From a phage: a stretch of DNA of 64,000 nucleotides. The stretch is from sequence record OZ346212.1, one strand, 5' to 3'. The stretch's first letter is position 1; each line of letters begins with the position of its first letter. Shown here piece after piece: positions 2 through 63,750 of this stretch. Both the position numbers and the translations under genes were made by a program. The notes under the pieces were generated by a model, which had not been told where the DNA came from, ran no database searches, and saw only the letters and a program-made list of their open reading frames with translations.

Positions 2-1462
2 TGTGGATGTGCAAACGCAGTAGATACTTTTGCAAACAATGAGAAATTTATCCGTAGCTACGGAACAGTGGTCCTTGCAATGGACAACGATGCGGCTAAC
101 GAGGTAGAGAAGCAAAAACACGTTATCAAAGGTGTTGAAGCCACACATAATATTGCAGCATTTTTGATGGCTGACAACGTTTACCACGTGGAATATCCTG
201 GCGAGGTAAACGACCCTGATGGTGTAAAAGATATCCGTGACATGCTGAAGGCTAAAAAGCTGGAAGATATTGTAAACATGTTCCGGCATCCTGTTAAGTA
301 TGTGCCTGATGCTGTGTCGGATTTAGAAGACTTCTCTATCGAATCTTTGCGGAAAAAGACTTCCAACGGGGTAGATATCAGCGCAGAGTTTCCAAAACTG
401 CAAAAAATGCTAAAAGGCTTGCACAAAGGGACACTCGTAATGCTTACAGGTCCATCAGGAGGTGGTAAAACAACTGTAGCCAAAAAACTGGAACACTGTA
501 TTGCAAGATACCTAATGGACCCGACATGTCCAAAGGCCGATGACTACGAAGAGGATGATCGTCTATGCATGATTCATCTTGAGGAGGACCCAGAGGAAGC
601 AATTAACTCCTTGTATGCAAACCAGTTAGGGTTTGATGTTAAAGAGTTTGTTGAAGATCCTAGCCAGTTTTTAACTGATCAAGAACATGCAGAGATTCAC
701 CAATCATGGGCAAAAGCTGGAAAAATCAAAGTGTTCAAACATTTCGGGTCTATTCCAGTGGACGAGTTGATTACCAAGCTTAAGCAAATGGTCTGCCTGT
801 ACCATTGTCGCTATATTGTGCTGGATCACCTGTCTATGGTAATTTCAGGGCTTAATGTTAAAGATGAGCGAAAAGAACTGGACATGGCTATGACTCAGCT
901 GGCTGCGTTTTGTAAGCAGTTTAACGTGTTTATCTTGGTGATCGCTCACCTCAAACGTACAGAGATTGTGCCTCCTAAGGACAAGGATGGTAACCCATTA
1001 CCTTTCTGGTATCCTGTGCGAAAAGAGAATTTGCGAGGATCGGCTGGGCTTGAACAGTTGAGTTGGGTAGTCATAGGTGTCGAGGCCGAAGAAATGGTGG
1101 ATCGTTCTCGTGGGCGTGTCCGTCTGGTAGGTCTTAAAAACCGTCCAGCAAAAACTTTAGGTATTGCTGACACTTTAGTTATGGACCCACATACAGGTAA
1201 GTTCCATGATGCCAGTAATTGGTACTGGGACAAAGAAATGCAGATGTTTACAGACGGAGAAGGTGGGGAGGTTGTTTGGAGACCTCAGGCCATGTTTGAG
1301 GACCAAGAGCATGCAGTTGTAGAAACACCTATGGGCAAGGTTGTAGCCGATAAGGTTGTAACTCCTACTATTAAGCCTGTTGACACGCAGGAAGACCTTC
1401 AGTACGATGATCCATCCTCTGATCCGGTCCCCGGTTTTGAGGATGATGAAACACCTTTTTAA
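2..1462 (+). CDS. DNA primase-helicase (T7 gp4-like), 5' end outside window
   Basis: Frame open to window edge; TOPRIM-like LAMDNDAANE; Walker A GPSGGGKTT; DnaB-type motifs IVLDHL, LVIAHLKR; acidic tail DDETPF. Confidence 0.85.
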   Translation, partial: CGCANAVDTFANNEKFIRSYGTVVLAMDNDAANEVEKQKHVIKGVEATHNIAAFLMADNVYHVEYPGEVNDPDGVKDIRDMLKAKKLEDIVNMFRHPVKYVPDAVSDLEDFSIESLRKKTSNGVDISAEFPKLQKMLKGLHKGTLVMLTGPSGGGKTTVAKKLEHCIARYLMDPTCPKADDYEEDDRLCMIHLEEDPEEAINSLYANQLGFDVKEFVEDPSQFLTDQEHAEIHQSWAKAGKIKVFKHFGSIPVDELITKLKQMVCLYHCRYIVLDHLSMVISGLNVKDERKELDMAMTQLAAFCKQFNVFILVIAHLKRTEIVPPKDKDGNPLPFWYPVRKENLRGSAGLEQLSWVVIGVEAEEMVDRSRGRVRLVGLKNRPAKTLGIADTLVMDPHTGKFHDASNWYWDKEMQMFTDGEGGEVVWRPQAMFEDQEHAVVETPMGKVVADKVVTPTIKPVDTQEDLQYDDPSSDPVPGFEDDETPF

Positions 1463-1520: not shown

Positions 1521-3944
1521 ATGAGCATGTGGTCGTTCGACTTTGAGTCATCCGGTTTGCTGGAAGACCCAGATCTTTATTATCACTGCGGCCTGTTTAA
1601 AGAGCTGAATAAGAACCGTTTTATGCTGTTCCTTCCTCTAAATGACCGCACACACTACTCCGAGGAGGATATAGAAAAGGCTAAGAACTTCATTCTGGCA
1701 AAGAAAACTCTTTATAAAGATTTTGAAGTTCGCATAGCAGATTTTTCAGAGTTGGAAGGTTGGCTTACAGGAAATTCTGACTGGTCACCAACAGCTTTGA
1801 ACTGCCATAACTGCTACAGTTATGACTTTATGCTGATGGAAAGATTATCTGGTATTCATTTTGATATGTTCCGTGATCCTAAGTGTATGGGGACTATCAA
1901 CGATCACCAGGTTAACCTGTTTGATACGTTGGCGATGAGCCGAATCTTGTGGCCTGATCGCCCTTTACCAAAAGGTTGTCCGGACTCTGTATTCAACCCG
2001 GTTACTAAGAAAATGCAGCCTGTTGGTCCTCACGGCCTTATGGCATGGGGCTACGCCCTTGGTAACCAGAAAGTTCAAATTGATGACTGGCGCGATCTTC
2101 CGTTATGGAAGTATGTGGATCGTGTATTTGAGGACGTTATCATCCAGGAGCTGCTCTGGAAAGAGCTGGTAGCGGAATCAAAAGGTGTATTCTACGGCAA
2201 ATCTGACATGCAGAACTTTATGTACGATCCTGCCAAAGAGAAGCCGAAAGGGTTCAAGAAGATCACCTGGAAGAACGCATTACGTCGAGGCATGTTGCAG
2301 CACTTCCTGATGGAGCTGCAGGCCCGTCAGGGTGTATACTTCGACATAGATGGGGCTATTGCTTTACGTGACCGCTGCGATGCGTGGATGAAAGAGATCG
2401 CTGATCGTGTTGAACCACAACTGCCTTTAAAAGAGCTGTCAATGTCTCAGCGGCCCAAGTTCCCTGAAAAGCCGTTTAACCAAGATGGGACAATCTCTAA
2501 TAATGGTTGGAAATGGTTAAAAGATAAGCTTGGCTATCCTGTGGACATGAGTGCTTTAGAGTTCAAAGCCCCACCTAAGCGAGCATTTACCTCTACAGGA
2601 GATGTCAGTAAGATGGGGATAAAATGGTGTGAAGAGATGGGCTGCAAAGACCACGATAAGATGGCTGATTTCTTGAGAGGTTATATTAAGGGCACCTCCA
2701 CACCACAACCTTTACCTAAAGAGCTGATGGATCAGGCAATAAGCGATCTGCAACAGAAGCGAATGCCTGACTGCAAGATACCTATGAAAATCAGCAATCA
2801 GGACGACATTAAGCGATACCTGATCAGTGCTGGTTGGCTTCCGACAATGTGGAGAACTAAGGATGTAACTAAGGACAGCAAGAAGAAAGCTCTACCTGAT
2901 GCAGATGTTGATGCACGAGTATATGCATACATGGACGAGCTTTTAGAGTCAGAGTATTGTGACCTAATTATCAACTTCTGGAACAAAACTGATGCTAAGT
3001 TTCAGACAACAGTGCACAAGTTCCGAAGCTTTCCTAACTCCGAAAGGATTAAAAAGGAAGTGTTCGGGAAAATACGCAGAAAAGCCAGGGCACTTATTAC
3101 TTCTCCGCAACTGAAAGATACGTTTGGACACCTATGTCCGAATCTTGAAAAATTGAACGGAGAGATGGCTAAAGATATCGTCTTGTGGTTATCATTGCGA
3201 AACCGCAGATCGGTCCTTGATCCAATCAAGGAGGATAAGGTTGATACTGGTCTTCTTAATCACCCACGTTTGAAGATTGACCATAAGCTTCCTGCTAAAA
3301 GCTCTGGATTAACAAACACTTCCCGACAGAAACACAGTATTTGTGCAAACATGCCTAAACCATCTCCTAAAGTGGTTATGGGTAAAGAGATGCGTAGCTT
3401 GTGGGGTGTTCCTCCTGGATACTTTGAGATCGGTATTGACGGGTCCAACTTAGAGCAGCTTATCGGGGCTTGGGGTGCCTTTGAGTTCGACAACGGCTTG
3501 TACTATGATGTTGTAAGTAACGGGGACGCACACCAAAACAATGCTGAGGCATATACAAAAGTAGCAGGCAGAGAGGTGTCTCGTAACGACGGTAAACCTA
3601 TCACGTATGGGGTTATGTACGGGGCACAAAAAGATAAAGTTGCAGATATGCTGGATATCTCCCCAGAGTTGGGGCAAAGGGTGATCGATGCACTTTGGGA
3701 TGCCAACCCAGGTCTTAAGGGGCGCAAAGAGGATCTGGAGAAATTCTGGGAAGCAACAGGTAAGAAGTTTATCTACTCTTTTGATGGTCATGCTATCTGG
3801 ACCCGATCTAAACACTCTTTACTTAATGCATACCAACAAAATGGCGGCGCATCGTTGTGTGACTTAGTTGGGATACTCATGCACCATCAAATGGTGAAGC
3901 GTGGGTGGTACGATGAAGGTGTTCGTCGTATTATCTATTACCAT
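1521..3944 (+). CDS. DNA polymerase family A, exon 1
   Basis: RBS AAGGAG before ATG 1521; Exo I FDFESSG; motif B KPITYGVMYGAQ; ORF ends at the His that should start motif C (HDE). Confidence 0.85.
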
Positions 3945-4786
3945 AAATAACATTGTGGCTTCGTGCAGTGATGCACGTCGAAAACCTCTTTAATTGACGG
4001 GAAGGCTAAGTTGACTTTTACACCTAAACATGGTAAAAGCTCAATATGCTAATCCGCAGCGAAGACTAAAGGGGTGTAGTTAAAATGGCTAGATCAGTTG
4101 AGTATCACGGATATACCGTGTTTGATGATGGAACAATACCTTTATCGAAACGTGATCATACAACAATGTTTTGTTTTGATAATGGTCGAGGTTACCTTTG
4201 CGTAACCATGTTCATCGAGGGGAAGCAGTGCACAAAAGGTGTCCACCACTTGGTTGCTGAATGCTTTGTATCAAACCCTGATCCTGAAAGGCTCACATGG
4301 GTGAACCATAAGGACGGAAACAAATACAACAATGCATACTGGAACCTTGAATGGACCACCCCTGGTGGAAATATCAAACACGCTTATGATAATGACCTCA
4401 GAGTAAGGCCAGTCGGTGAGTATAATGCCAACGCTGTACTGACCGAGGATGAGGTAACGGAGATTTGCGAACTGTTACAAAGTGGTTTACGACAATGCGA
4501 GATTAGGGATCTTGGGTATCCTTATGAGACGGTCAGAGCCATAAAGCAAAGAAGACAGTGGAAACATATCTCTAAAAACTACACCTGGTAGTAACGTTCA
4601 GAGACTATCGAAAGCATAGCGCCAACATAAATTGGTGCGAAGAAGCGAGTAGAGTAGACCAGCAAGTGCGGTCGAAATGGGAGGTGCCTTGGTAACAAGG
4701 TAGTGAGATAGTCCGATCCATACAGGAAACTGTATGGCTGTGCACGTAATGGTGCGGGGTAGCTTAACGACCTACCTGAACTATTG
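3945..4786 (+). mobile_element. group I intron interrupting DNA polymerase motif C
   Basis: Exon 1 ends in T3944, intron ends in G4786; P/Q/R/S-like elements at 3994, 4051-4060 (AATCCGCAGC), 4596-4610 (GTTCAGAGACTATCG), 4705-4714 (GAGATAGTCC); contains HNH ORF. Confidence 0.7.
4085..4591 (+). CDS. HNH homing endonuclease (intron-encoded)
   Basis: RBS AAAGGGG; HNH signature NHKDGNKYNNAYWNLEW; located inside intron. Confidence 0.8.
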   Translation: MARSVEYHGYTVFDDGTIPLSKRDHTTMFCFDNGRGYLCVTMFIEGKQCTKGVHHLVAECFVSNPDPERLTWVNHKDGNKYNNAYWNLEWTTPGGNIKHAYDNDLRVRPVGEYNANAVLTEDEVTEICELLQSGLRQCEIRDLGYPYETVRAIKQRRQWKHISKNYTW

Positions 4787-5140
4787 GATGAGTACCAACT
4801 TCAAGTCCCTGACACACCGAAGTATAAGACTGTGTACACCTTCGACACAATCGAAGAACTGGAAGCATTTAAGGCAGAGCAGGAGGCCAAACTTCATGTG
4901 TTCGACGGTCATAAGTACAAAAAGGCACGCAAGGATGAGGACGGAAACGAAGTGGTTGACAGAGACGGAAACACGGTGTACGATCCTATCCTGAACGATG
5001 ACGGAAAGCTTGAACTTATCTGGAGCCCTGTGGGTGAAATGGTGGTGCATTGCTTCTGGCAAGCTTCTAAAATGATGGGCGTCCCGTTCCAGATCACGGG
5101 TGAATACCTGTGTGGTCGTAATTGGGGTGATTGTCACTAA
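4787..5140 (+). CDS. DNA polymerase family A, exon 2
   Basis: Begins with DE completing motif C (IIYYH|DEYQLQV); C-terminus GRNWGDCH matches Pol I / T7 pol ends. Confidence 0.75.
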   Translation, partial: DEYQLQVPDTPKYKTVYTFDTIEELEAFKAEQEAKLHVFDGHKYKKARKDEDGNEVVDRDGNTVYDPILNDDGKLELIWSPVGEMVVHCFWQASKMMGVPFQITGEYLCGRNWGDCH

Positions 5141-7965: not shown

Positions 7966-8331
7966 ATGGAACAAATGAACGATCAAGCGTCGGTTGCGAT
8001 GAACGAGCAAGAACAACCTCAAGAATTTTTCTTAGGGTTAAGTAAAGATCAAGTGTCTCTTCTGCTAGTGCTTTCTTCTTTCATGGGAAGACTTCAGGAG
8101 CTCACACAACAGCCAGAGGCTGAACAATTATTCCAAGCTTTGCGTGAAGAAGAAAAATATCGTCGTTTGGACTATGCCTTAGGTTGGGTAGCTCAACAAC
8201 GAGATATGCTGATGGCCCTCTCTGGGACCACAAGTTTTGCAATGGGGCTGTTGGCTCAAGTTCAGGACAAATTAATTCAAGCAGGGTTTGCACACACGGC
8301 AAACACTAACGAAGAACAAGGAGACAAATAA
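7966..8331 (+). CDS. hypothetical protein
   Basis: ORF track; RBS TCGGAGA. Confidence 0.5.
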   Translation: MEQMNDQASVAMNEQEQPQEFFLGLSKDQVSLLLVLSSFMGRLQELTQQPEAEQLFQALREEEKYRRLDYALGWVAQQRDMLMALSGTTSFAMGLLAQVQDKLIQAGFAHTANTNEEQGDK

Positions 8332-9557
8332 TGAGCGTTATTCAACAATTCGCTAACCCGATGAATCCGCGTGAAACTGTTTTACTGGCTCACGGCATGA
8401 TTAAACGTGTCAGCATCAAGCCTATCAAAGGTGCTGATCCTACAACAGGTATTAAAACCACTGTGTGGCAAGGTAAGAAAATTGAATCCAGCCACACCAT
8501 CTCTTTACTGATTTCTGAACTGGATTCCTCTGATAACCTGCTTCAAGGTGGTGAAGAAGTTTGGATCAGCATGGGTGATAAGCTGCTTAAACCTGGTCAT
8601 CAAGACTCTGTCTCTGTTAAAATTGATGACAAGTGGGAAACCGTAACGCCGGGATGGATCGTAAATATTCCTTTGAAGGCAAACGAGCATAACGGTAAGA
8701 CCTATTACAAAGGCTCACTGGCTAAGATGGTCAAGCTGGGTGCAGGAGAGGCTCCAGCAGCGACTCAGCAGCAAAAACAGCAACAAGGTGCACAATCACA
8801 AGGCCAGAAGCAGAAACCTCAGCAGAATGCCAATCAGGACGTTTTACGCATCTATGGTGATGTGACTCAGATTGTTGGCAACGTGGTTACTGTTAATGAC
8901 CACAAGATTGGCGAAGGTGCTATGGTTGTAACTGATGAGCAGCTTAAAGACCTGGTGGTAGGTGGTCGTGTTGCAGCCATTGTTGACAAAGACACCGGAA
9001 ACATTATCAGTGGTTTCAAGGCCTATCCTCCTAAGGCAGAGAACGGCACTCAAGGCTCTGGTGGCAAGCGTAAATCCTCTTACGACCCTATCGGTGTGGA
9101 AACGGGGCATAGCATCAATGCGTTGCAGATCATCCTGGATCGCGGGTTTAAGGTAGACGACCCACTGGGCGTGGCTAAAACACTGCACGTAGTCACCATT
9201 GAGCTTAAGAAAGAGTATGCTCAAGCCACCAACCGAGCTGAAGATGAAGTAGGTGCCAGTGTCGGTAATGCGGTGTTGAACGCTTGTCGCCGTATTGACA
9301 AGAAAACGAAAGTTGATGATTTTGCAGTGGCAATTACTGCAGAAGCAAAAGATGTCTTGACTAATCTAGCTGAGCCGTTGTACGATTGGATCAAGAACGG
9401 TGCTGAGTCCACTGACCATCAAGAACCTCAGGCTGCCAAACAGGAAGCAGCTCCACAGCAAAACACTGTAGACGCTCCTCCTGTAAATGATGCGGAAGAT
9501 GACCCAATGGATCAGAATCCAGCACAGTACGTCTTTGATGATGACATCCCATTTTAA
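8331..9557 (+). CDS. ssb: single-stranded DNA-binding protein
   Basis: C-terminal DDDIPF identical to the bacterial SSB acidic tip; Q/G-rich linker; RBS AAGGAGA. Confidence 0.75.
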   Translation: MSVIQQFANPMNPRETVLLAHGMIKRVSIKPIKGADPTTGIKTTVWQGKKIESSHTISLLISELDSSDNLLQGGEEVWISMGDKLLKPGHQDSVSVKIDDKWETVTPGWIVNIPLKANEHNGKTYYKGSLAKMVKLGAGEAPAATQQQKQQQGAQSQGQKQKPQQNANQDVLRIYGDVTQIVGNVVTVNDHKIGEGAMVVTDEQLKDLVVGGRVAAIVDKDTGNIISGFKAYPPKAENGTQGSGGKRKSSYDPIGVETGHSINALQIILDRGFKVDDPLGVAKTLHVVTIELKKEYAQATNRAEDEVGASVGNAVLNACRRIDKKTKVDDFAVAITAEAKDVLTNLAEPLYDWIKNGAESTDHQEPQAAKQEAAPQQNTVDAPPVNDAEDDPMDQNPAQYVFDDDIPF

Positions 9558-9619
9558 CATTTAGTTAACATAGCCCTGCCAGAAAGGGTGGGGTATTTTT
9601 GTATAAGGAGATCTAAAAA

Positions 9620-10036
9620 ATGACATTAGAAGATATCATTGTTAAACCTGAGAACTATGACCAATACAACCTGTCAACTCAATCTGTAGACCTTGGATGC
9701 GCCACGGTCAGTGCGTGGCTGGTTAACGGAAAAGAGCTGGATAAATGCTTAGAAGCTCACATGTCTATTAACAAGTTTCTGGATGAAAATACTCACTGGC
9801 TTGAGGGTGCAGGAGTATATGCTTCATGGTTGGAAAGTATGGGATTCGACTACCAATCTGAAGAAGGGTGGTGGAGCTATTTAGCTATCTGCCCAGAGAC
9901 GCTGCAATGCTTCATGAAATATTCTGAAGATTTGGAGTACCGGGCGGTGGTTGATAGTGCTATTGCCCGTTATAGCCGTAAACCTTTTTCCCACGACATT
10001 AAAACTGTGGAAGAGTTTGTTGAAGTTTTCTGTTGA
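9620..10036 (+). CDS. hypothetical protein
   Basis: ORF track; RBS TAAGGAGA. Confidence 0.5.
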   Translation: MTLEDIIVKPENYDQYNLSTQSVDLGCATVSAWLVNGKELDKCLEAHMSINKFLDENTHWLEGAGVYASWLESMGFDYQSEEGWWSYLAICPETLQCFMKYSEDLEYRAVVDSAIARYSRKPFSHDIKTVEEFVEVFC

Positions 10037-63584: not shown

Positions 63585-63659
63585 GCCCTGTTAGCTTAGT
63601 GGATAAAGCAGCGGCCTTCTAAGCCGTTGACACTGGTTCGAGTCCAGTACGGGGTGCCA
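63585..63659 (+). tRNA. tRNA-Arg (anticodon TCT)
   Basis: Cloverleaf folded by hand: acceptor GCCCTGT/ACGGGGT, D-stem GCTT/AAGC, anticodon loop CTTCTAA, T-loop TTCGAGT, encoded CCA. Confidence 0.8.
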
Positions 63660-63663
63660 AATT

Positions 63664-63750
63664 GGGGAGTTATCCCGTAGAGGTAGCGGTGTAGACTGTA
63701 AATCTATTGTCATTGCGACTCGGGTGGTTCGACTCCACCACTCCCCACCA
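63664..63750 (+). tRNA. tRNA-Tyr (anticodon GTA)
   Basis: Acceptor GGGGAGT/ACTCCCC, anticodon loop CTGTAAA, long variable arm, T-loop TTCGACT, encoded CCA. Confidence 0.8.

What the first reader, a model, noticed from the sequence alone, without database searches (positions are those of the whole stretch)
9520..9557. SSB and primase-helicase share acidic C-terminal tails ending in Phe
The SSB ends ..VFDDDIPF and the primase-helicase ends ..GFEDDETPF (1436..1462). In T7, gp4 and gp2.5 both use an acidic C-terminal tail with terminal Phe to dock on the polymerase. The same arrangement here predicts a T7-style replisome built around this intron-containing polymerase.
Basis: partly seen in the sequence, partly recalled or inferred. 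Interest (0 to 1): 0.4.

Follow-up and report, generated by a model that had tools for sequence, protein, structure and literature searches.

The report
Shared SSB-type docking tails, rV5-like replisome
In this rV5-like E. coli phage, the primase-helicase and an SSB-like protein both end in a conserved acidic tail finishing in Pro-Phe, and the SSB-like copy exactly matches the tip of the host's own SSB, so these are real docking peptides of a T7-type replication machine, though the partner is unproven and the SSB-like half has already been published.

Summary
The ORF at 8331-9557 ends ...YVFDDDIPF* and the primase-helicase ORF ending at 1462 ends ...GFEDDETPF*. About 0.02 such tails are expected by chance in this window. 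The tails are also strongly conserved: P-F is invariant across the homologues of the 408-aa protein, and 100 of 120 helicase homologues end in PF.

The window is a Vequintavirus, about 99.8% identical to phage Murica in this stretch. The "SSB" has no sequence match to any SSB family. It is predicted to have an OB fold, long disordered linkers and a helical domain. It is the orthologue of Bas52_0087, which a 2026 preprint already describes as SSB-like with an FDDDIPF tip resembling the E. coli SSB tip.

The tails resemble the bacterial SSB tip (…DDDIPF) more than the T7 tails (…DF). The polymerase is T7-gp5-like and keeps a conserved dibasic pair where T7 has R590/R591. T7-style docking is therefore plausible but untested, and recruitment of host SSB partners is an equally live possibility.

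Two side findings are less expected. A conserved 15-residue cap follows the tip in many alleles, including genuine SSBs of unrelated phages. Homing endonuclease genes repeatedly sit directly after the tip codons.

Verdict: a new member of a known kind, of moderate interest.

The parts
2..1462 (+). C-terminal 486 aa of a gp4-like bifunctional primase-helicase. The gene starts left of the window; full-length homologue P0057 is 692 aa.
   Evidence: Pfam AAA_25 6e-16 and DnaB_C 9e-14; phrog_239 'DNA primase/helicase' 3e-119; annotated DNA primase/helicase in related genomes.
1433..1459 (+). Helicase C-terminal tip G-F-E-D-D-E-T-P-F, followed by the stop codon at 1460-1462.
   Evidence: 100 of 120 homologues end in PF, with consensus D-[DE]-[TSE]-P-F after a variable linker.
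1521..3950 (+). Exon 1 of the T7-gp5-like family-A DNA polymerase. The ORF reads a few codons into the intron.
   Evidence: PF00476 at E 1.5e-6, below the curated cutoff. The only PDB sequence relatives are T7 DNA polymerase, E 1e-14. BLASTP anchors to T7 gp5 leave an insert of about 150 aa where T7 has its thioredoxin-binding domain.
3762..3767 (+). Polymerase K748-K749, a dibasic pair aligned with R590-R591 of the T7 gp5 front basic patch.
   Evidence: [KR][KR] in 20 of 21 homologues aligned there. T7 K587/K589 fall in a 6-residue gap.
3935..4736 (+). Group I intron in the polymerase gene, containing an HNH homing endonuclease ORF at 4085-4591.
   Evidence: Rfam RF00028, 39.1 bits (gathering score 50), E 3.4e-8, full model length matched. 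HNH_3 weak hit. The polymerase is annotated as a joined CDS around a homing endonuclease in Bas51.
4784..5140 (+). Exon 2 of the polymerase, as listed by the ORF tool. The true exon probably begins near 4737. It ends ...GRNWGDCH*.
   Evidence: T7 gp5 ends ...GPNWAICH*. Annotated 'DNA polymerase A' in Mangalyan.
8331..9557 (+). 408-aa SSB-like protein, orthologue of Bas52_0087, in phrog_4477.
   Evidence: 98.5% identical over 408 aa to MZ501102 75981-77204 (H82). D252 and Y351, the residues changed in the published escape mutants, are present. phrog_4477 at 1.7e-172.
8331..8744 (+). N-terminal all-beta (OB-fold) domain, aa 1-138.
8841..9026 (+). Second small beta domain, aa 171-232, flanked by disordered Gln-rich linkers. 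It is absent from the short (~275-305 aa) family members.
9087..9395 (+). Four-helix domain, aa 253-355, with the invariant G-x-E-T-G-H-x-x-N motif. The published DRT10 escape mutations D252V and Y351C lie at its edges.
   Evidence: pLDDT about 90; preprint 10.64898/2026.04.29.721553.
9417..9554 (+). Disordered C-terminal linker, aa 363-408, ending in the tip.
   Evidence: pLDDT below 50. The sequence and length of this stretch vary between homologues.
9534..9554 (+). Tip F-D-D-D-I-P-F, identical to the last seven residues of E. coli SSB.
   Evidence: hhalign of the family against E. coli SSB aligns only this tail (probability 87%, E 4e-6).

Best explanation
The window carries the replication module of an rV5-like (Vequintavirus) phage. 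It encodes a gp4-like primase-helicase, a T7-gp5-like DNA polymerase split by a group I intron, and an OB-fold, SSB-like protein about 8 kb downstream.

The helicase and the SSB-like protein each end in a flexible linker followed by a short docking peptide of the bacterial SSB-tip type: an acidic run, one variable residue, then Pro-Phe at the free C-terminus. That these tips are conserved and under selection is shown by the data here.

The mechanism is inferred. As in solved SSB-tip complexes and in T7, the terminal Phe and its carboxylate would sit in a hydrophobic pocket edged by basic residues on a partner, with the acidic run adding electrostatic attraction. Because the two tips are so similar, they probably compete for the same site or sites.

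The most likely shared partner is the phage's own gp5-like polymerase. This would tether the helicase to the polymerase at the fork and let the polymerase hand over or displace the SSB-like protein, as in T7.

The SSB-like tip is an exact copy of the host tip, with Ile at position -3. It probably also engages host SSB-interacting proteins such as exonuclease I. The helicase tip carries Thr, Ser or Glu at -3 and is less host-like. These two roles do not exclude each other.
For: **The tips exist and are conserved far beyond their linkers.**
- The tail sequences are, and chance expectation is about 0.02 per window.
- Conservation in both families is shown.
- The stretch before the tip is predicted disordered.

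**The tip is shared with the host.**
- It is identical to the E. coli SSB tip.
- Some homologues carry 12 of 12 residues, EPPMDFDDDIPF.

**The module is T7-like.**
- A conserved dibasic pair sits at the T7 R590/R591 position.

**The pairing recurs in other phages.**
- In other lineages with gp4-like helicases, a helicase ending in an aromatic residue is paired with a nearby ORF ending in an acidic run plus PF.
- This holds even when that ORF is not homologous to this family.

**Published support.**
- T7 tails bind the gp5 front basic patch, and PDB 6P7E holds the gp4 peptide DTDF (PMC12339929).
- The PF-type tail of a phage SSB recruits a phage protein, Sak4 (PMC5928155).
- The orthologue Bas52_0087 is the trigger of the DRT10 defence, a system genetically linked to host exonuclease I (preprint).

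**No rival SSB was found.**
- tblastn found no canonical SSB in the window or in Murica 1-50 kb.
- None is annotated in Murica 129-135 kb.
Against: - No binding was tested here or in the literature I found.
- Only 2 of the 4 to 6 basic residues of the T7 patch are kept. The thumb insert has no detectable similarity to the T7 thioredoxin-binding domain.
- About 28% of Vequintavirus alleles extend the SSB-like protein by 15 residues beyond the Phe. This would bury the terminal carboxylate and argues that a free PF end is not always required.
- About 15 kb of the reference genome (Murica 50-65 kb, the structural-gene region) was not checked for another SSB.
Confidence: 0.55

Rival explanations
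1. Host mimicry only. The tips evolved to plug the phage proteins into the host SSB interaction network (exonuclease I, RecQ, PriA, the chi subunit, and others), or to compete with it. They have no role in binding the phage polymerase.
For: - The SSB-like tip is an exact 7-residue copy of the host tip, and a 12-residue copy in some homologues.
- Both tips end in Pro-Phe like the bacterial tip, not in Asp-Phe as in T7.
- The Bas52_0087 preprint links this protein to host exonuclease I genetics.
Against: - The helicase tip consistently differs from the host tip at position -3: Thr, Ser, Cys or Glu instead of Ile or Val.
- Helicases of more distant phages keep a terminal Phe without the Pro. This fits a phage-internal partner better.
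- The polymerase keeps a conserved dibasic pair at the T7 tail-binding position.
Confidence: 0.25
2. Self-regulation. The acidic tails mainly fold back onto the proteins' own DNA-binding surfaces to tune ssDNA affinity, as described for T7 gp2.5, T4 gp32 and E. coli SSB. The terminal Pro-Phe would then be incidental to partner binding.
For: - The architecture is an acidic tail on a long disordered linker.
- The T7 literature shows that tail deletion raises ssDNA affinity (PMC12339929).
Against: - Invariance of exactly Pro-Phe, rather than just negative charge, across families sharing at most 50% identity points to a specific pocket.
- AlphaFold2 does not dock the tail on the folded domains; the tail has pLDDT below 50.
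- This role is compatible with the best explanation and does not exclude it.
Confidence: 0.1
3. The 408-aa protein is not the replicative SSB. It would be an OB-fold adaptor, for example a loader or mediator, that uses an SSB-type tip to reach SSB-binding proteins.
For: - It has no sequence homology to any SSB family, and only generic OB-fold matches.
- It has an extra conserved helical domain of unknown function with invariant polar residues.
- No ssDNA-binding assay has been published; the preprint offers prediction only.
Against: - No other SSB candidate was found in the parts of the genome checked.
- Its architecture (OB fold, disordered linker, tip) is that of SSBs.
- Its orthologue triggers a defence system built on single-stranded cDNA.
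Confidence: 0.15
4. The similarity of the two tails is a coincidence of composition.
For: The tails are short, at 7 to 9 residues.
Against: About 0.02 such tails are expected per window and 2 are observed, both in replication genes. Both are conserved across hundreds of homologues while the adjacent linkers vary.
Confidence: 0.01

Closest known systems
Phage T7 gp2.5 (SSB) and gp4 (primase-helicase) acidic C-terminal tails, which dock on gp5 polymerase/thioredoxin
   Same: - The gene set is the same: a fused primase-helicase, a family-A polymerase most similar to T7 gp5, and an ssDNA-binding-type protein.
- Both accessory proteins end in an acidic tail with a terminal Phe.
- The polymerase keeps a dibasic pair at the R590/R591 position.
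   Different: - T7 tails end Asp-Phe with no Pro, whereas here both end Pro-Phe.
- The SSB-like protein is not homologous to gp2.5. It is 408 aa long, with two beta domains and a helical domain.
- T7 residues K587/K589 and recognisable thioredoxin-binding-domain loops are absent.
- Binding is untested.
E. coli SSB C-terminal tip (…MDFDDDIPF), the hub for more than a dozen genome-maintenance proteins
   Same: - The last seven residues are identical to the SSB-like protein's tail.
- The tip follows a long disordered linker.
- Pro-Phe-COOH is invariant.
- The helicase tip is a one- or two-residue variant; for example, DFDDDTPF occurs in relatives.
   Different: - The OB domain has no detectable sequence similarity to PF00436 SSBs.
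- The tip also sits on a helicase, which bacterial replicative helicases do not carry.
- The oligomeric state is unknown.
Bas52_0087 of phage RudolfGeigy (bioRxiv 10.64898/2026.04.29.721553)
   Same: It is the orthologue, at 98.5% identity with the same D252 and Y351. The preprint already describes the SSB-like fold, the disordered C-terminus and the FDDDIPF motif resembling the E. coli SSB tip. [quoted passage not shown]
   Different: In the passages I retrieved by term search and in the section describing Bas52_0087, the preprint does not mention the matching tip on the primase-helicase, the T7-type replisome context, the family-wide statistics, the 15-residue cap, or the homing endonuclease hot spot. 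I did not read the whole paper.
Phage HK620 SSB tail (NDYPPF), which recruits the phage annealase Sak4 (PMC5928155)
   Same: A phage SSB with a PF-ending tail that is needed to recruit a phage-encoded partner.
   Different: The partner is of a different class (recombination rather than replication), the SSB body is different, and no helicase carries a matching tail.

Membership tests
T7-type replisome with tail-mediated coupling (gp4/gp2.5 tails on gp5) | Fused primase-helicase of the gp4/DnaB-like family | tested here: met
   Pfam DnaB_C and AAA_25; phrog_239 at 3e-119.
T7-type replisome with tail-mediated coupling (gp4/gp2.5 tails on gp5) | gp5-like family-A DNA polymerase | tested here: met
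   The only PDB sequence relatives are T7 gp5, E 1e-14. The C-terminus ...NWGDCH matches T7 ...NWAICH. PF00476 scores below its cutoff.
T7-type replisome with tail-mediated coupling (gp4/gp2.5 tails on gp5) | Acidic C-terminal tail with terminal Phe on both the helicase and the SSB | tested here: met
   conserved. The motif is ...PF rather than T7's ...DF.
T7-type replisome with tail-mediated coupling (gp4/gp2.5 tails on gp5) | SSB of the gp2.5 family (Pfam SBB_T7) | tested here: not met
   No Pfam hit. hhalign of the family against gp2.5 gives probability 0.25%.
T7-type replisome with tail-mediated coupling (gp4/gp2.5 tails on gp5) | Basic tail-binding patches on the polymerase: the front patch (K587, K589, R590, R591) and the thioredoxin-binding-domain loops | tested here: inconclusive
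   Only the R590/R591 equivalents are kept (K748-K749), conserved as [KR][KR] in 20 of 21 homologues. K587/K589 fall in a gap. A thumb insert of about 150 aa exists but shows no similarity to the thioredoxin-binding domain.
T7-type replisome with tail-mediated coupling (gp4/gp2.5 tails on gp5) | Physical, Phe-dependent binding of the tails to the polymerase | not testable with these tools
   This needs complex prediction or biochemistry.
Bacterial-type SSB with C-terminal tip (SSB-Ct) | C-terminal hexapeptide D-D-D-[IL]-P-F with a free carboxyl end | tested here: met
   FDDDIPF followed by a stop codon, identical to E. coli SSB.
Bacterial-type SSB with C-terminal tip (SSB-Ct) | Intrinsically disordered linker before the tip | tested here: met
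   pLDDT below 50 for residues 363-404; variable in length and sequence between homologues.
Bacterial-type SSB with C-terminal tip (SSB-Ct) | OB domain of the SSB family (PF00436) | tested here: not met
Bacterial-type SSB with C-terminal tip (SSB-Ct) | ssDNA binding, and tip-dependent binding of partner proteins | not testable with these tools
   There is only indirect genetics in the preprint, involving SbcB dosage and DRT10.
phrog_4477 / Bas52_0087 family | Full-length sequence homology, including the residues changed in the escape mutants | tested here: met
   phrog_4477 at 1.7e-172. 98.5% identity to the Bas52 locus. D252 and Y351 are present.

The most novel reading that the evidence does not exclude
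The acidic Pro-Phe tip is a portable docking module. Phages place it on non-homologous replisome proteins, including SSBs of several folds and gp4-like helicases.

Its activity would be switched or redirected by a conserved 15-residue cap, A-P-[IV]-G-L-[QP]-[YF]-x-x-[HS]-x-I-[YH]-x-[LI]. The cap follows the Phe in many alleles and would bury the terminal carboxylate.

The cap is found on the rV5-type SSB-like protein, on primase-helicases, and on genuine SSBs of unrelated phages. Its residues are kept through different codons.

The tip-coding DNA would also be a preferred homing site for two families of free-standing endonuclease genes, which may move tip and cap variants between genes and between phages.
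Probability: 0.2. Interest if true: 0.7.

Novelty: new member of a known kind. Interest (0 to 1): 0.4.

Why it matters
rV5-like phages are common E. coli and Shigella therapy candidates, yet almost none of their replication proteins are annotated. This analysis gives a testable wiring diagram for their replisome: a helicase and an SSB-like protein sharing one docking peptide, and a gp5-like polymerase with a conserved dibasic site.

It also shows that a large, unannotated phage protein family (phrog_4477, at least 245 clusters at 50% identity) almost always carries a bacterial-type SSB tip.

The same protein triggers the DRT10 defence. Knowing which partners its tip binds, phage polymerase or host exonuclease I, bears directly on how that defence senses infection.

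The cap and the endonuclease hot spot, if confirmed, would be a natural on/off variant of one of the best-studied bacterial protein-interaction motifs.

Tried and rejected
**Searches on the 408-aa protein that led nowhere**
- Sequence searches against Pfam and PDB chains gave nothing meaningful.
- Profile-profile comparison with T7 gp2.5 gave nothing. With E. coli SSB, only the tail aligned.
- Foldseek against the PDB was not significant (best E 0.024, generic OB folds).
- Foldseek against viral models returned only uncharacterised relatives and weak SSB or DUF2815 hits.
- The afdb50 library was unavailable.

**The 15-residue extension after PF in many alleles**
- I considered that it might be read-through into a group I intron that splicing removes.
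- I rejected this for two reasons. The extension occurs in SSB genes with no insertion after them, such as epsilon34 and PSTNGR2lys. Also, across five copies, 51 of the 83 conserved residue pairs use different codons, so the selection acts on the peptide.
- I considered overlap with the endonuclease ORF as the cause of its conservation. I rejected this because different endonucleases start at different places, inside the extension or 45 nt after it.
- AlphaFold2 of a capped variant left the cap disordered, so nothing is learned about its function.

**Other checks**
- PF-tailed ORFs next to more distant helicases were compared with this family. They share only the tail.
- The adjacent 121-aa gene, labelled 'putative SSB' in one GenBank record, shows no support for that name.
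- Literature searches for a helicase tip mimic, the cap, or endonuclease homing at SSB 3' ends found nothing relevant.

Full report
**What the window is.** The first 12 kb match 128 phage records, mostly Vequintavirus (rV5-like) genomes, at 95-97% identity. The stretch 8331-9620 is 99.8% identical to phage Murica.

The left end of the window encodes a replication module:
- the C-terminal 486 aa of a gp4-like primase-helicase (Pfam DnaB_C and AAA_25; phrog_239);
- a family-A polymerase at 1521-3950, whose only solved sequence relatives are T7 DNA polymerase (E 1e-14);
- a group I intron at 3935-4736 (Rfam 39.1 bits, below the gathering score of 50, E 3.4e-8), which carries an HNH gene;
- a second polymerase exon ending ...NWGDCH, like T7's ...NWAICH.

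**The observation.** The 408-aa ORF at 8331-9557 ends ...NPAQYVFDDDIPF*. The helicase ends ...PVPGFEDDETPF*. Of 367 six-frame ORFs of at least 60 aa in the window, only these two end in PF preceded by three or more acidic residues. The composition-based expectation is about 0.02.

Conservation settles that the tails matter:
- In an alignment of 26 homologues reaching down to 29% identity, P407 and F408 are invariant and the tip reads D-[FW]-D-[DE]-[DS]-[IV]-P-F. The preceding linker varies in both length and sequence.
- A profile search of 1.84 billion cluster representatives found 245 clusters. Of 147 new representatives, 108 end in PF (IPF 64, LPF 23, VPF 14).
- Of the 120 listed helicase homologues, 100 end in PF, with consensus D-[DE]-[TSE]-P-F. 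These include marine Vibrio phage proteins at about 45% identity.

**Is the 408-aa protein an SSB?** Not by sequence.
- It has no Pfam hit, falls in phrog_4477 'unknown function', and is 'hypothetical protein' in nearly all GenBank records. One record calls it 'putative SSB'.
- hhalign of the family against T7 gp2.5 finds nothing. Against E. coli SSB it aligns only the last 13 columns.
- AlphaFold2 (mean pLDDT 74) predicts an all-beta N-domain (1-138), a Gln-rich disordered linker, a second small beta domain (171-232), a four-helix domain (253-355) and a disordered tail (363-408).
- No canonical SSB was found by tblastn in the window or in Murica 1-50 kb. None is annotated at 129-135 kb.

'SSB-like' is therefore a reasonable inference, not a demonstrated function.

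**Prior literature.** A bioRxiv preprint of 30 April 2026 (10.64898/2026.04.29.721553) identifies Bas52_0087 of phage RudolfGeigy (MZ501102) as the trigger of the DRT10 reverse-transcriptase defence.
- It reports a predicted SSB-like architecture and notes the FDDDIPF motif resembling the E. coli SSB tip.
- It maps escape mutations to D252V and Y351C.
- The window's protein is 98.5% identical to that locus and has D252 and Y351.

The SSB-like half of the finding is therefore already published, at the level of prediction. I found no mention there or elsewhere of the helicase tip.

**T7 style or host style?**
- T7 gp2.5 ends ...EEADEDGDF and gp4 ends ...DWSNDTDF. E. coli SSB ends ...NEPPMDFDDDIPF.
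- The SSB-like tail shares its last seven residues with the host protein. Homologues P0049 and P0052-54 share twelve.
- Helicase tips such as DFDDDTPF differ from the host tip by one residue. Across the family they consistently carry Thr, Ser, Cys or Glu at position -3, where SSB-type tips carry Ile, Val or Leu.
- In form, then, both tails are bacterial SSB-tip peptides. In solved and modelled SSB-tip complexes, the terminal Phe and its carboxylate sit in a hydrophobic pocket with basic residues (for example the DnaG C-domain, PMC5872125).
- The T7 analogy still has support. The replisome gene set is T7-like.
- The polymerase has a dibasic pair, K748-K749, aligned with T7 R590-R591. This is the core of the front basic patch that binds the T7 tails (PMC12339929). 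It is [KR][KR] in 20 of 21 homologues aligned there.
- T7 K587/K589 fall in a gap. The thumb insert of about 150 aa shows no similarity to the T7 thioredoxin-binding domain.

**A wider pattern.** I scanned 80 viral contigs that encode helicase relatives.
- rV5-like contigs, and a more distant one (L017), pair a helicase ending in ...PF with an ORF ending in ...[IV]PF 6-8 kb downstream.
- A group with helicases at about 35% identity has helicases ending in ...[DSTQG]F, as in T7. Each has a downstream ORF of 211-366 aa ending in an acidic run plus PF. These ORFs share only the tail with the present family and have no Pfam hit.
- A group at about 26% identity has an upstream 150-aa ORF ending ...DSVDEF, with a weak gp2.5-family hit.

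Paired acidic, aromatic-ended tails on the helicase and a nearby small DNA-binding-type protein are thus a recurring feature of gp4-type modules. The body of the second protein changes between lineages.

**Unexpected extras.**

*A 15-residue cap after the tip.*
- Eleven of the 56 homologues of the SSB-like protein, and about 28% of Vequintavirus records (32 of 116), continue past the Phe with 15 residues, for example APVGLQYGKSRIHAL.
- The same peptide follows ...DTPF in primase-helicases of GAP31, SalP219, KpS8 and Mydo-type phages, and in P0064 and P0066.
- It also follows the tip of genuine SSBs of unrelated phages. Examples are epsilon34 gp35 (...NEPPMDFDDDIPFAPVTLPFPRHAIHAI*), ECH1, PSTNGR2lys and Vibrio phages. 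In all, 154 records match at E no greater than 1e-3.
- Across five copies, 51 of the 83 conserved residue pairs use different codons, so the peptide itself is under selection.
- It would bury the terminal carboxylate. AlphaFold2 leaves it disordered. Its function is unknown.

*Homing endonuclease genes directly after the tip codons.*
- An endonuclease-VII-like gene follows the SSB-like gene. It occurs with the cap in Mangalyan and without the cap in Bas51, where the endonuclease is 87% identical. A 40%-identical relative follows the ECH1 SSB.
- HNH-AP2 genes follow the helicase in Bas51 and L012.
- Alleles carrying an endonuclease have silent changes in the tip codons (CCT TTC instead of CCA TTT). 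This fits a homing site that overlaps the tip-coding DNA.

**Verdict.**
The tails are real docking-type peptides in a T7-type module, but they are of the bacterial SSB-tip kind. The 'SSB' is only predicted, and binding to the polymerase is an analogy with modest sequence support.
- Recruitment of host SSB partners is an equally plausible additional role.
- Part of the finding is already in a preprint.
- I rate it a new member of a known kind, of moderate interest. The cap and the endonuclease hot spot are the most novel leads.

Noticed in passing
Not in the window (both window genes are uncapped). Seen at L001 11026-11072 (Mangalyan), L012 12017-12064, L089 1519-1566 (ECH1 SSB), L090 1519-1566 (PSTNGR2lys SSB) and L091 1219-1266 (epsilon34 SSB).: A conserved 15-residue extension, A-P-[IV]-[GT]-L-[QP]-[YF]-x-x-[HS]-x-I-[YH]-x-[LI], follows the ...PF tip in many alleles of the SSB-like gene, in some primase-helicase genes, and in genuine SSBs of unrelated phages. 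154 phage records match at E no greater than 1e-3. The residues are kept through different codons. It would mask the terminal carboxylate of the tip, and its function is unknown.
   Followed up: partly
L001 11044-11667; L005 12699-13277 and 3934-4668; L089 1556-1966; L012 12118-12630. The window's equivalent empty sites are 9558-9619 and 1463-1520.: Free-standing homing endonuclease genes sit immediately after the tip codons of both genes in related phages: an endonuclease-VII-like family after the SSB or SSB-like genes, and an HNH-AP2 family after the helicase. Alleles carrying an endonuclease have silent changes in the tip codons, which suggests the tip-coding DNA is a homing site. The window has neither insertion.
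   Followed up: partly
window 3935-4736: The polymerase gene is interrupted by a group I intron carrying an HNH ORF (4085-4591). The Rfam match is full length but below the gathering score (39.1 against 50 bits, E 3.4e-8). Some relatives carry further insertions; the first polymerase CDS in Mangalyan is 3399 nt against 2430 nt here.
   Followed up: partly
window 7966-8331: A 121-aa acidic, probably helical protein is encoded directly upstream, and the last base of its stop codon is the first base of the SSB-like gene's start codon. One GenBank record (JLBYU08) also calls it 'putative SSB', but nothing supports that: no Pfam hit, phrog_7310 'unknown function', and only repeat-protein noise in the PDB. 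It could be a partner of the SSB-like protein.
   Followed up: partly
window 9087-9395 (aa 253-355 of the SSB-like protein): A confidently predicted four-helix domain carries the invariant residues G255, G259, H260, N263, G312 and L316. The published DRT10 escape mutations lie at its edges. It has no recognisable relatives and its function is unknown; the preprint suggests oligomerisation.
   Followed up: no
window 63585-63745: Two adjacent tRNA genes were detected by Rfam at the right end of the window.
   Followed up: no
Phage database records MG0656xx: Sixteen records named 'Campylobacter phage', with host given as C. jejuni, are 95-99.8% identical to these E. coli vequintaviruses. The host attribution in those records looks doubtful.
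   Followed up: no
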